A DNA stretch of 64,000 bases from Anaeromyxobacteraceae bacterium (GTDB taxonomy: Bacteria; Myxococcota; Myxococcia; Myxococcales; Anaeromyxobacteraceae): the NCBI GenBank assembly GCA_047602405.1, contig JASGHJ010000002.1:256001-320000 (forward strand), given 5' to 3'. Position numbers and translations under genes: made by a program. Shown here piece after piece: positions 19,588-25,272 of the stretch; within the stretch, counting starts at the first letter, position 1; every line of letters begins with the position of its first letter. Under the pieces are notes generated by a model, which was not told the origin of the DNA, did no database searches, and was given only the letters and a program-made list of their open reading frames with translations.

Positions 19588-22018
<2,431 letters not shown>

Positions 22019-22084
22019 GGCCGGCGCGGGGGAGGGGAACGCCACCCCGTGACGGTGGCGGTGCCTCGGGCCCGCCTCCGGGTG

Positions 22085-22372
22085 GCGTTTCCGATGGGTC
22101 GCCTCGCGGGGTCTCTCCGCTCCTCGGGCCCAGGGCAACGTCCCGCCGCGTCGGGGATCCTGGAGACGGCACCGAGCTGCTGGAGACCCGCGGCACCACC
22201 ACGTGCGCCATGCGAGGCGGGGAGCGTGGTGATGGGCGAACGGCGGTGACGAGCGCGGGCGGCATCGGCCGCCTCGCATGACACACTTGGTGCAGATCGC
22301 GGCTCCGATCTTGGGCGGGCCAGCCGTGGGCCCTGCGGTGCGGAGAGACCCCGCGAGGCGGCATGGGAAGCG
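22085..22372 (+). repeat. long imperfect-palindrome element, copy A
   Basis: Terminal arms GTCGCCTCGCGGGGTCTCTCCGC / GCGGAGAGACCCCGCGAGGCGGC; homologous to the reverse complement of 23365-23627. Confidence 0.85.
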
Positions 22373-22411
22373 TAGCGATGGGGTGAGGCAGTCTGGTCCA
22401 ACGTTTGTGTT

Positions 22412-22502
22412 GGCCGGATCGCCGGGCCTCTCTGCCCGCGGGGCTTCCGCAGACCCGCCCAAGATCGGAGCTGAGATCAGCGCGAAGCATGCCAGGCGCA
22501 GC
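22412..22502 (-). repeat. partial copy B of the long palindrome element
   Basis: First 28 nt identical to 23375-23402; similarity continues, degenerate, to ~22502. Confidence 0.8.
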
Positions 22503-22532
22503 ACTGCCTAGCCAGGACGGCTTCCAACCCGC

Positions 22533-23183
22533 TCAGCGGTTCCTCCCGGGCTTCTGCTCGACGGTCCTGATCGCCTTCTCGGCTTCTGATGCCTCGCCCG
22601 GGCGCCCGCATTTCCTCAGGACCTTTACCACCTGATCGCCGAACTCTTCCGCCTGCTCCGGCTGAAAGAGCCTCGCTGCCGCAACCAAGTGCGCTGATCC
22701 GCGCTCGACATCGCCCTGCTCAATGAGATCGTATCCGAGCTGAAGACGGCCCATAGCGAAATTGGGGTCCCTTCGAACGAGTTCCCGAATCTCTCGGCGC
22801 CGCTCGTCAGCATCGAGGAGCATGGTAGTGAACGTGTACCGCGCGTGCGAGTCAGCGGGTCGCAGCTTCAGGTACTCGCGATAGTAGGAATACGCGAGGG
22901 CCTTGTACTTCGGACGCTCCTCCTCCGTTGCATGCTGGGACGCGAAAACCCACGCGGCATCTCCCAGCAAGAGATTCGCTTCCGCGAGCTTGGCGCAACC
23001 CTCCGCAAGCGCCCGCTGGAGCTCGCGAATGCCCTCCCCAACCCCCTCCCGATTGCCCCCTTCCGCGTCGTAGACGTGAAGCTGAATCAGCCTCGACCCC
23101 TTTTCAAAGTGGACACACGGCTCGCCCACAGTCTGCTGCGGAGTCGACAGACACGACACGAGGATAAGGGAAAGAGGAGTCAT
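22533..23183 (-). CDS. AT-richer, probably foreign TPR-like hypothetical protein
   Basis: Atypical codon usage; hydrophobic N-terminus MTPLSLILVSC; TPR-like C-terminus (RRDPNFAMGRLQLGYDLIEQGDVERG); ATG overlaps an upstream TGA. Confidence 0.7.
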   Translation of the reverse strand: MTPLSLILVSCLSTPQQTVGEPCVHFEKGSRLIQLHVYDAEGGNREGVGEGIRELQRALAEGCAKLAEANLLLGDAAWVFASQHATEEERPKYKALAYSYYREYLKLRPADSHARYTFTTMLLDADERRREIRELVRRDPNFAMGRLQLGYDLIEQGDVERGSAHLVAAARLFQPEQAEEFGDQVVKVLRKCGRPGEASEAEKAIRTVEQKPGRNR

Positions 23184-23364
23184 CTGTGGTTCCAGTCCCT
23201 GTCTTCGCATGTTGTCTCGGTCGGAGGAGAATTCCCGCCGAGTGCCCGGCGCGCTGCCGTGAATACAATGCACCGGTCCAGCGCTTGTGTCCGAACAGTC
23301 AATCCATGGCGCCCGTGCCGATCCCACGGTTGCGTTCGCCATCCCTCCTCGACCCACCCACACC

Positions 23365-23627
23365 GATCGTAGGCGGCCGGATCGCCGGGCCTCTCTGCCC
23401 CGCAGGGCCTTCGGCTGGCCCGCCCAAAGACGGAGCCGCGATCTGCACGGAGCGTGACAGCCGAGCCGGAGACGTCACCCTGGCGGCGGCGTCGCGCTCG
23501 GCTGGCACGCGTGGACGTGCCGCGGGTCTCCAGCAGCGCGGCGCCGTCTCCAGGATCCCTGCCGCGGCGGGCCTTTGCCCAACGGCCCGAGGAGCGGAGA
23601 GGCCCGGCGAGCCGGCCGCCCACGGTC
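23365..23627 (-). repeat. long imperfect-palindrome element, copy C
   Basis: Arms GGCGGCCGGATCGCCGGGCCTCTC / GAGAGGCCCGGCGAGCCGGCCGCC; inverted relative to copy A. Confidence 0.85.
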
Positions 23628-23646
23628 ACCCCTGAGAGGAAACGCG

Positions 23647-25258
23647 CTAGAGGAGCTTGAGCGTCGCCGGATACGTCGGGGCACGCCGGGCCTTCGCCGC
23701 CTGCTCGAAGGCGTACGCGAGGGCGAGCAGCCTCGGCTCGGACCACGCGCGGCCGAAGAACGACAGGCCCACCGGCAGCCCGCGGACGTCGCCGGCGGGG
23801 ACCGTGACGTGGGGCGTGCCCGCGACCGCGGCGAAGGTGGAGGAGGACGGGCCGAAGTGGTCGCCGTTCACGAGATCGGTCACCCAGGCCGGCCCGTCGG
23901 TCGGCCCGATGAAGGCGTCGAGCCGCTCCTTCTCGAGCCCCGCCTCGAGCTCCCGGCGGGCGGCCGCGCAGGCCTCCTTCGCGGCGAGGTACTCGGGCGC
24001 GTCGAGGCCGCCCTTCGCGGCGCCCTGCACGACGAGCTCCTGGCCGAACCAGGCGAGCTCCTCGGCGGCGTGGGCCTCGTTGAAGGCGGCGATGTCGGCG
24101 AGCCCGCGGAGCTTCCCGCCGCGGCGGGCGAGGTAGGCCGCCATGTCGGCCTTGTACTCGTGGAGCAGCACCTGCAGCTCGGCGGCCTCGTAGGACTTCG
24201 AGGTGAGCTCCACCTCGACGAGCGTCGCGCCGCGCGCGCGGAGGAGCTCGAAGGCGGCGCGCATCACCCGGTCGACCGCGGCGTGCTGGCCGAGGAGTCC
24301 TTTCACGACGCCGAGCCGGGCGCCCGCGAGCGCCCCGGCGTCGAGGCCTGCGAGGTAGTCCCGCGGGCCCGGCCGCCCCGCGGCGCCGGTCGCCGGGTCC
24401 TCGGGGTCCGCCCCGTCGAGCGCGCCGAGCAGGATCGCGGCGTCGCGGACCGAGCGCGCCATCGGCCCCGCGGTGTCCTGGCTGTGCGCGATGGGGATGA
24501 TGCCCGTCCGCGACACGAGCCCGATCGTCGGCTTCACGCCCACGAGCCCGCACAGGCTGGAGGGGCTCACGATCGAATCCGTCGGTCTCGGTCCCGACCG
24601 CGACCGGCACGAGGCTCGCGGCGACCGCGGCGGCGGAGCCGGAGGAGGAGCCGGAGCAGTTGCGGTCGAGGGCGTAGGGGTTCCGGGTGAGGCCGCCGCG
24701 CCCGCTCCAGCCGGAGGTCGAGCGGTCGCCGCGCAGGTTCGCCCACTCGGAGAGGTTGGTCTTCCCGAGCAGCACCGCCCCCGCGGCGCGGAGCCGCTCG
24801 ACGACGAACGCGTCCTTCGCCGGGCGGGGCGCGTCCACGAGCGCGAGCGAGCCGGCGGTGGTGAGCATGCGGTCGGCGCTGTCGACGTTCTCCTTCACGA
24901 GCACCGGGATGCCGTGGAGCGGCCCGCGCACCTTGCCGGCGGCGCGCTCCCGGTCGAGCGCCTCGGCGATGGCGAAGGCGTCGGGGTTGGTCTCGACGAC
25001 GGCGCGCAGCGCCGGGCCCCGACGGTCGACGGCCTCGATGCGGGCGAGGCACGCGTCCGCGAGCGCGCGGGCGGTGAGCTTGCCCGCGGCGAGCGCCGCG
25101 CCGAGGCCGGCGAGCGTCGCCTCCTCGAGCGCGGCCTCCGACCGCCGCACCGCGTGGTCGGGGGCGGCCGCGCGGGGCCGGGAGGCGCCCATCGCGAGCG
25201 AGCCACCGGCGGCGAGGGAGAGGCCGAGGAACGGCCGGCGGCCGAGGCGAGGCGGCAT
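23647..25258 (-). CDS. amidase signature family enzyme with Tat-like signal, apparent +1 frameshift at ~24576
   Basis: RRPFLG signal, GPLHGIPVLVKEN, GKTNLSEWAN, SGSSSGSAAAVAA, GTETDG(SIV) restored by removing one base. Confidence 0.9.
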
Positions 25259-25272
25259 GTGAACCTCCGTGG

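What the first reader, a model, noticed from the sequence alone, without database searches (positions are those of the whole stretch)
22085..23627. Unrecognised ~260-nt rod-like hairpin element with covarying stems, in 2.5 copies around a foreign gene
Seen: copy A (22085-22372, plus) and copy C (23365-23627, minus) are homologous, and each folds into one long bulged hairpin. Outer and inner stems differ yet stay paired: A has GTCGCCTCGCGGGGTCTCTC/GAGAGACCCCGCGAGGCGGC and CATGCGAGGCGG/CCGCCTCGCATG; C has GGCGGCCGGCTCGCCGGGCCTCTC/GAGAGGCCCGGCGATCCGGCCGCC and CAGCCGAGC/GCTCGGCTG. The asymmetric core is conserved in sequence (GGGATCCTGGAGACGGC..CTGCTGGAGACCCGCGGCAC, TGCAGATCGCGGCTCCG..TTGGGCGGGCCAGCC). 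Partial copy B (22412-22502) is a mosaic: 28 nt identical to C and a 17-nt block (CCCGCCCAAGATCGGAG) matching A. B and C are direct repeats bracketing an AT-richer insert. Inferred: a structure-selected non-autonomous element or ssDNA recombination site (conceptually like attC or REPIN, but longer and without attC cores) that may capture gene cassettes; a structured ncRNA is the alternative.
Basis: partly seen in the sequence, partly recalled or inferred. Interest (0 to 1): 0.8.

Follow-up and report, generated by a model that had tools for sequence, protein, structure and literature searches.

The report
Giant paired DNA hairpin repeats
The two long hairpins are members of an undescribed repeat of about 260-290 bases that sits, usually as a facing pair, between converging ordinary genes at 15 places in this genome; it likely spreads as folded single-stranded DNA with the help of an enzyme not yet identified, and the foreign gene between the hairpins here is a one-off rather than a captured cassette.

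Summary
Copies A and C fold as long rods (z about -6.5). They belong to a family of 20 full and 5 partial units at 15 loci of this genome. All 15 loci lie between convergent genes, and 9 hold a tail-to-tail pair of dissimilar units.

Covariation is strong but Watson-Crick, with no G·U excess on the mRNA strand. Variants are linked by distance in the folded rod, not along the sequence. The family was found in only 2 of 151 genomes of the order. Seven orthologous sites in the sister genome lack it.

A second family with the same layout (31 units, about 318 nt) shares a terminal leader motif and carries DNA-type GNA triloops on the antisense strand.

Cassette capture is not supported: flanking genes are host-like, and only this locus holds a foreign gene. 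No mover lies next to any copy.

Best reading: an oversized REPIN/BIME-like non-autonomous element acting as folded ssDNA, probably moved in trans by a Y1 HUH enzyme (inferred). The scan noted this family before at another locus of this genome (e1-9979641), and similar layouts in other genomes.

The parts
19588..22018 (+). lon protease gene (host), whose stop lies 67 nt before unit A; a +1 frameshift at about 21270 is probably an assembly error
   Evidence: NCBIfam lon hits for both halves; one-base insertion against the sister genome
22078..22388 (+). Unit A (long-apex type): leader about 22078-22097, rod 22098-22362, conserved tail to 22388
22389..22411 (.). Short spacer between A and B, with a small inverted repeat
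   Evidence: sequence; no other copy in the genome
22412..22502 (-). Fragment B: degenerate 3' third of a short-apex unit, lacking the 5' two-thirds and the usual tail; likely the remnant of A's earlier partner
   Evidence: profile positions 168-260; segment comparison with all 20 copies
22533..23210 (-). Foreign orphan gene, about 219-225 aa (start uncertain), predicted TPR-like helical protein; single copy
   Evidence: weak Pfam TPR_15, E 0.011, below cut-off; one homologue at 55% identity; TPR look-alikes in the ESM Atlas; GC3 0.73
23337..23364 (-). Conserved 3' tail of unit C, shared with other short-apex units and remnants
23365..23642 (-). Unit C (short-apex type): rod 23365-23627, leader to about 23642; GTGG at its 5' foot and CTAC at its 3' foot
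23647..25259 (-). Amidase gene (host), convergent with lon, stop 19 nt from unit C; a +1 frameshift at about 24576 is probably an assembly error; start placed by eye
   Evidence: NCBIfam amidase hits for the 3' part; directly adjacent to lon in the sister genome

Best explanation
These are units of a lineage-restricted, gene-less repeat that sits in facing pairs just after the stop codons of convergent host genes and likely spreads and recombines as folded single-stranded DNA, probably moved in trans by a Y1 (HUH) transposase. SHOWN: 25 units at 15 convergent loci; a conserved rod with Watson-Crick covariation; presence/absence differences against the sister genome; copies that are mosaics of matched left and right helix halves; partners always dissimilar and not co-inherited. 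INFERRED: (1) the strand antisense to the neighbouring mRNA is the one that folds; (2) an enzyme recognises the leader and the foot of the outer stem, and cuts and rejoins ssDNA there; (3) exchange between folded copies, or selection against recombinants that break the mirror, keeps helix halves together; (4) near-identical facing pairs collapse by deletion, so only dissimilar pairs survive; (5) at this locus a foreign gene plus a new unit C replaced most of A's earlier partner, leaving B. I put a Y1 enzyme as the mover at about 0.4 within this reading.
For: Copy census and context. Only 208 of 1746 intergenic regions over 120 nt are convergent. Covariation: 96.5% of cells paired, 17 of 51 pairs with double changes, 0 of 500 shuffles as high, slid controls 35-43%. 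No G·T excess on the mRNA strand: C·A 11 against G·T 3 cells with an unbiased fold; sister family 1x1 mismatches C·A 36 against G·T 12. cGNAg triloops on the antisense strand in 27 of 31 sister-family units; that such loops are DNA-stable is recalled knowledge. Linkage between opposite arms falls with folded distance: rho -0.107, 0 of 83 circular shifts as low; sister family -0.233, 3 of 97. Range: 2 of 92 family genomes and 2 of 151 order genomes. Element absent at 7 of 7 orthologous sites tested in G010 and at 2 of G010's 3 sites in G000. Collapsed units at 3 loci. GT[AG]G at the 5' foot in 10 of 20 units against 0.08 background per window. Eleven Y1 genes are present and, pooled, lie nearer the 31 loci of both families than random markers (p 0.004-0.009).
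Against: No Y1 or other mobility gene is flanked by the element, and no Y1, RT or IS110 flank resembles it. The Y1 proximity test was post hoc: 1 of 10 marker sets, and not significant for either Y1 subfamily alone. The arms are not self-palindromic like REPs (mean z about 0). The GT[AG]G foot is missing in 10 of 20 units, and a double foot occurs in only 2 of 20. This family has no apical GNA loop, and its strand bias rests on few events (5 against 2). No two copies exceed 92% identity, so there is no sign of recent movement. Two 'empty' G010 sites keep short end-like motifs (read by eye) and one site is shared, so some differences are losses, not gains. No target duplication could be defined.
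Confidence: 0.6

Rival explanations
1. A domesticated structured RNA: the rods are transcribed with the flanking mRNAs, or by read-through from the opposite gene, and stabilise or terminate transcripts at convergent gene ends.
For: Every unit is in the same orientation relative to the nearest stop codon, mostly 13-200 nt away. The mRNA-sense strand has the lower RNA folding energy in 20 of 20 copies. Flanking genes are slightly more codon-adapted than average. REPs and bcr1 are reported as transcribed (PMC3733652, PMC3184786, passages).
Against: The sense strand is G-rich, which lowers RNA energy by itself. Wobble pairs are not enriched on it. Flanking genes share no function. The sister genome does without the element at 7 of 7 tested sites. 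No Rfam match. Transcription may still be a side effect.
Confidence: 0.14
2. A selfish RNA-coding module moved by one of the genome's IS110 recombinases or by the group II intron RT, like Ssr9 of ISPpu9.
For: Two IS110 families (4 copies each) and 7 intron copies are near-identical and so recently active. Ssr9 is a published precedent (PMC12288879, abstract and passages). The rod has a large asymmetric internal loop with variable segments.
Against: No similarity to IS110 or intron ends. Variable segments match their own flanks no better than other flanks (7.1 against 7.08 nt and similar). The IS110s target the 55-nt REP family and the sister family's tail, and the intron targets start codons, none of them these sites.
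Confidence: 0.1
3. A neutral relic: an old repeat whose stems are kept matched by template-switch self-correction and gene conversion, tolerated only in convergent gaps, with no dedicated mover now.
For: Copies are old (mean 78% identity within type). Collapse through the stems is seen. End stutters occur in 3 of 20 and 4 of 31 units against 1.3% background. The mover was not found.
Against: Self-correction should erase bulges and the asymmetric loop, yet these are conserved. It does not explain fixed orientation, a leader shared by two families or the strand bias of the sister family.
Confidence: 0.11
4. An attC-like recombination site that captures gene cassettes.
For: Here a foreign gene is bracketed by direct-orientation B and C, and B follows its stop codon by 30 nt. 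Short foreign remnants lie beside three other copies.
Against: 1 of 15 loci holds a foreign gene. There are no arrays; units are inverted, not direct. B is truncated at both ends and is not a reciprocal product of C. None of the 9 tyrosine-recombinase matches adjoins a copy. These gaps also collect REPs, IS remnants and simple repeats.
Confidence: 0.05

Closest known systems
REPINs and REP HH dimers / BIMEs with RAYT (TnpA-REP) (PMC3116915, PMC3733652, PMC8266576; passages read)
   Same: Gene-less, species-restricted, extragenic; long hairpin with compensatory changes; inverted pairs of two unit types; found downstream of genes; targeted by IS110 elements (sister family); GT[AG]G often at the stem foot.
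   Different: Units are 260-320 nt, not 20-40 nt REPs or doublets spaced 71-110 nt; arms are not self-palindromic; the tetranucleotide is not fixed; only tens of copies; restricted to convergent gaps; no RAYT gene flanked by the repeat.
'Double foot' long REPs of TnpA-Y1 subclass 2.4 (PMC6006769, passages read)
   Same: One hairpin with GT[AG]G at the 5' foot and C[TC]AC at the 3' foot, as in unit C here.
   Different: A double foot occurs in only 2 of 20 units; the units are far longer, with a conserved multi-branch loop; no linked tnpA gene.
bcr1 (about 155 nt) and YPAL/ERIC-type long stem-loop repeats (PMC3184786, passages read; ERIC recalled)
   Same: Lineage-specific repeat of 100-300 nt kept folded by compensatory changes, with non-conserved positions between relatives.
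   Different: bcr1 has 5-bp direct repeats and is read as an RNA fold; here no direct repeat was found, the bias points to the antisense or DNA strand, and units come in facing dissimilar pairs.
Integron attC sites (recalled)
   Same: Folded ssDNA element downstream of a gene, structure conserved more than sequence.
   Different: No direct-repeat cassette arrays, no adjacent integrase, longer, flanked by host genes.

Membership tests
REP/REPIN/BIME | Each REP is itself a 20-40 nt imperfect palindrome | tested here: not met
   Outer arms fold no better than shuffles, mean z -0.0 to +0.28 over 20 copies
REP/REPIN/BIME | Conserved GT[AG]G tetranucleotide at the hairpin foot | tested here: inconclusive
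   10 of 20 units at the 5' foot, 4 of 20 at the 3' foot, background 0.08; sister family 19 of 31
REP/REPIN/BIME | Inverted doublet forming a long hairpin with compensatory changes, extragenic | tested here: met
REP/REPIN/BIME | Cognate RAYT gene flanked by the repeats | tested here: not met
   11 Y1 genes, all below the NF047646 cut-off; nearest is 22 kb from a copy of this family; no similarity in the flanks examined
REP/REPIN/BIME | Strand-specific binding and cleavage by the RAYT | not testable with these tools
   needs purified protein
Classical MITE | Terminal inverted repeats shared with an autonomous IS, plus a target-site duplication | tested here: not met
   No autonomous partner by profile search; no duplication evident against G010 sites, though about 6% divergence limits this
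Integron cassette / attC | Direct-repeat sites each following a variable ORF, with an integrase nearby | tested here: not met
Known structured ncRNA | Match to an Rfam family | tested here: not met
   Only chance miRNA hits far below gathering score
IS110 bridge-RNA module | Variable loop segments complementary to the insertion site or ends | tested here: not met
   Own flanks score as other flanks in 4 of 4 segments
Retron msr-msd | Non-coding RNA directly upstream of an RT gene | tested here: not met
   8 RT matches, 7 of them copies of one group II intron; none adjoins a copy, the closest is about 4 kb away

The most novel reading that the evidence does not exclude
The two families are the first worked examples of an unrecognised class of mobile element: 260-320-nt single-stranded DNA rods that are targeted to the 3' ends of convergent genes by an unidentified enzyme and exchange helices while folded, so that they evolve in the coordinates of the fold rather than of the sequence. 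Unverified scan notes of the same layout in another myxobacterial genus and in Lachnospiraceae would make the class widespread.
Probability: 0.25. Interest if true: 0.75.

Novelty: new variant of a known kind. Interest (0 to 1): 0.45.

Why it matters
How REP-type palindromes spread is still unresolved (PMC8266576, abstract start and passages). Two parallel families of much larger rods in one genome give many natural variants with fixed orientation and a shared leader, so they are a compact system for finding the mover and for testing recombination between folded ssDNA. They also warn RNA-discovery screens that strong covariation among paralogous intergenic hairpins can come from DNA-level elements. 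If the rods are only old relics, the value is modest: an undescribed repeat in two genomes.

Tried and rejected
Rfam: nothing.

Wide pattern scans: viral contigs gave 8 matches to a left-arm pattern, none scoring as the element. Genome contigs gave 1 match and metagenome contigs 2 matches to a two-arm pattern, all chance by profile. The two-arm pattern would miss shortened copies such as those of G010, and records very near this genome may be left out. Plasmid and phage collections: no match.

Movers checked without a link: Y1, RT, IS110, tyrosine recombinases, GIY-YIG, Y2/IS91 (none in G000 or G010).

Guide-to-flank matching: negative. Co-inheritance of partners, expected if the pair is copied as one unit: not found (Mantel rho 0.02, 7 pairs; 0.03, 14 pairs). 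Homology between the two families by profile: not detected; only the leader motif is shared, and it was defined after seeing the data (5 of 20 and 17 of 31, background 0.0015). Sigma-70 promoter and terminator scan of the locus: at chance level.

Sequencing runs: no run held more than 14% of the words. Three sludge DNA assemblies carry element-like pieces, one matching G010's copy; the one RNA assembly laid (X15) did not cover unit A or the insert, which shows nothing about expression.

A covariance model with base pairs for the whole unit could not be calibrated, so relatives were searched with a sequence-only model of the left 103 positions; structurally conserved but diverged relatives could be missed.

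Literature searches found no description of this family in their listings. Supplements of PMC3733652 and PMC6006769, which list REP families by genome, were not opened and could bear on novelty.

Full report
Observation. Each folds into a long branched rod well beyond shuffles as DNA and as RNA. Two details are off: the B/C identical run is 26 nt, and the 17-mer shared by B and A is a common family variant with 6 genomic copies. The organism looks like an Anaeromyxobacter-type myxobacterium; that is my inference and no call named it.

The family. A profile search of the 6.16-Mb genome found 20 full units and 2 partial ones; end profiles added 3 collapsed remnants. They occupy 15 loci. With my own codon-based gene calls, all 15 lie between a + gene and a - gene; one of these calls rests on a 45-aa ORF. 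Only 208 of 1746 intergenic regions over 120 nt are convergent. Every unit points the same way relative to the nearest stop codon. Seven loci hold two full units tail to tail, six of them with 80-150 nt between; two hold a unit and a remnant; six hold one unit. Units fall into long-apex (A), short-apex (C) and divergent (D) types: identity averages 0.78 and 0.79 within A and C, 0.63 between them, and partners are 0.54-0.75 alike. Flanking genes are unrelated host genes such as tsf, an enoyl reductase, an Hsp70 and a nitroreductase; 16 of 26 had a Pfam hit at 1e-10. Their GC3 is not low.

Structure. RNAalifold found 59 pairs, 22 with a double change. On 51 core pairs, 96.5% of cells pair and 70 cells show double changes, above all 500 shuffles and all slid controls; the structure came from the same alignment, and cells are not independent events. 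The covariation is Watson-Crick. With a fold that ignores wobble pairs, C·A outnumbers G·T on the mRNA-sense strand (11 against 3 cells, 5 against 2 events), which is weak but opposite to what an mRNA-strand RNA would give. The sense strand has the lower RNA energy in 20 of 20 copies, but it is the G-rich strand.

Mosaic inheritance. Left and right halves of a helix travel together while neighbouring helices are reshuffled. Excluding directly paired columns, linkage between variants on opposite arms falls with distance in the folded rod (rho -0.11) and not with linear distance (-0.02); 0 of 83 circular shifts gave as low a value. This fits exchange between folded molecules. It fits equally nested conversions followed by selection for the fold, and these data cannot separate the two. 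Partners in a pair do not share history (Mantel rho 0.02).

A sister family. While checking IS110 targets I found a second family: 31 units of about 318 nt, in 15 tail-to-tail pairs and one single, 30 of 31 between convergent genes. Profiles do not detect homology between the families, but they share a leader motif before the outer stem (motif chosen after the fact). The sister family has cGNAg triloops on the antisense strand in 27 of 31 units and C·A 36 against G·T 12 on the sense strand, both pointing to a DNA fold of the antisense strand (the DNA stability of GNA triloops is recalled, not tested). It shows the same folded-distance linkage (rho -0.23, 3 of 97 shifts). Partner identity never exceeds 0.81 while one unit type averages 0.87, and collapsed pairs exist, which suggests that too-similar facing pairs are deleted.

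Range and polymorphism. A sequence-only model of the left part hit 2 of 92 family genomes and 2 of 151 order genomes, G000 and G010. The sister family has the same range among 92 (where only 8 candidates per genome were scored). In G010, lon and the amidase gene are separated by about 115 nt of hexamer repeats; none of the other 28 genus loci fetched had the amidase beside lon within the fetched 1.5 kb. Six more orthologous sites of the 15 were tested and all lack the element, though two keep short end-like motifs. Of G010's three damaged copies one is at a shared site and two at sites where G000 has none. So the family predates the split, and both gain and loss are likely.

The insert. The gene at 22533-23210 is single-copy, has one homologue at 55% among proteins of similar length and looks TPR-like. 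It is the only intact foreign gene at the 15 loci (other long ORFs in that table run through the GC-rich units themselves, by my reading). B is a doubly truncated, independently diverged unit. These gaps also collect REPs, IS remnants and simple repeats. The simplest history is a secondary insertion into an existing pair.

The mover. The genome has 11 Y1 genes, all below the RAYT cut-off, two IS110 families, a seven-copy group II intron and nine tyrosine-recombinase matches, and no Y2 transposase. None adjoins or resembles a unit of this family. The pooled Y1 genes lie closer to the 31 loci of both families than chance (median 77 kb against about 154 kb, p 0.004-0.009). This was post hoc, one of ten marker sets, and neither Y1 subfamily was significant alone. 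GT[AG]G stands at the 5' foot of 10 of 20 units. I therefore name a Y1 enzyme as the most likely mover, but only at about 0.4.

Comparison. It works like a REPIN/BIME: PMC3116915 describes doublets forming hairpins with compensatory changes, PMC3733652 describes heterodimers and positions downstream of genes, and PMC8266576 describes strand-specific ssDNA recognition (passages read). It fails membership, since the arms are not palindromes and no cognate RAYT locus exists. bcr1 is the closest in size and covariation (PMC3184786, passages). PMC10969869 gave no relevant passage. Six literature searches showed no description of this family in their listings; supplements were not read.

Earlier scan notes. 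e1-9979641 reached a similar verdict on another locus of this family, after I had logged my own reading. Notes on other genomes report the same layout; I did not check them.

Verdict. A real, undescribed, oversized variant of bacterial palindromic repeats, with a second family in the same genome and an unusual inheritance pattern, but no identified enzyme and no support for cassette capture. Interest 0.45.

Noticed in passing
G000, e.g. C2:518804-519522 (L127), C2:2411527-2412230 (L128): Second giant paired-hairpin family, 31 units of about 318 nt, in 15 facing pairs between convergent genes; 4 pairs carry an IS1111-type IS110 element inserted at the same point of the unit's tail.
   Followed up: yes
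G000, at least 42 sites, e.g. C2:3114644 and an array at C2:3676052-3676993: A 55-nt REP-like repeat with a covarying inner hairpin, often closed by a GNA triloop. One copy adjoins a stand-alone GIY-YIG gene (C1:1892729 and 1892872), a variant lies upstream of a short Y1 gene (C2:1325321), and all 4 copies of one IS110 family are inserted in it.
   Followed up: partly
G000 C1:439597, 557811, 2073934; C2:769786, 1212582, 1713502, 1787451: Seven near-identical group II intron copies, each inserted at what looks like a start codon (ATG or GTG before, ATG after).
   Followed up: no
window 21270 and 24576: lon and the amidase gene each carry a one-base insertion against G010 that creates GAATC; one intron copy shows the same kind of change. 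Likely long-read assembly errors at a methylated motif, so other frameshifts in this assembly should be doubted.
   Followed up: partly
G000 C1 versus C2: 27 of the 31 loci of both hairpin families lie on contig C2, which by GC skew spans the terminus; expected fraction 0.61, p 0.002.
   Followed up: partly
L005 (C2:1057256), L030 (G010), C1:2051474 spacer: Gaps holding these hairpins also contain ends of other mobile elements: a copy of the short Y1 element's end motif (13 genomic copies) and IS21-like end remnants (label recalled).
   Followed up: partly
window 22035-22092: A 21-bp imperfect inverted repeat after the lon stop overlaps the leader of unit A and could form an alternative hairpin.
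   Followed up: no
G000 C2:3400814-3404589: A convergent gap with 319-nt inverted arms at 91% identity around about 2.9 kb of uncalled DNA, unrelated to the two families; perhaps a composite transposon.
   Followed up: no
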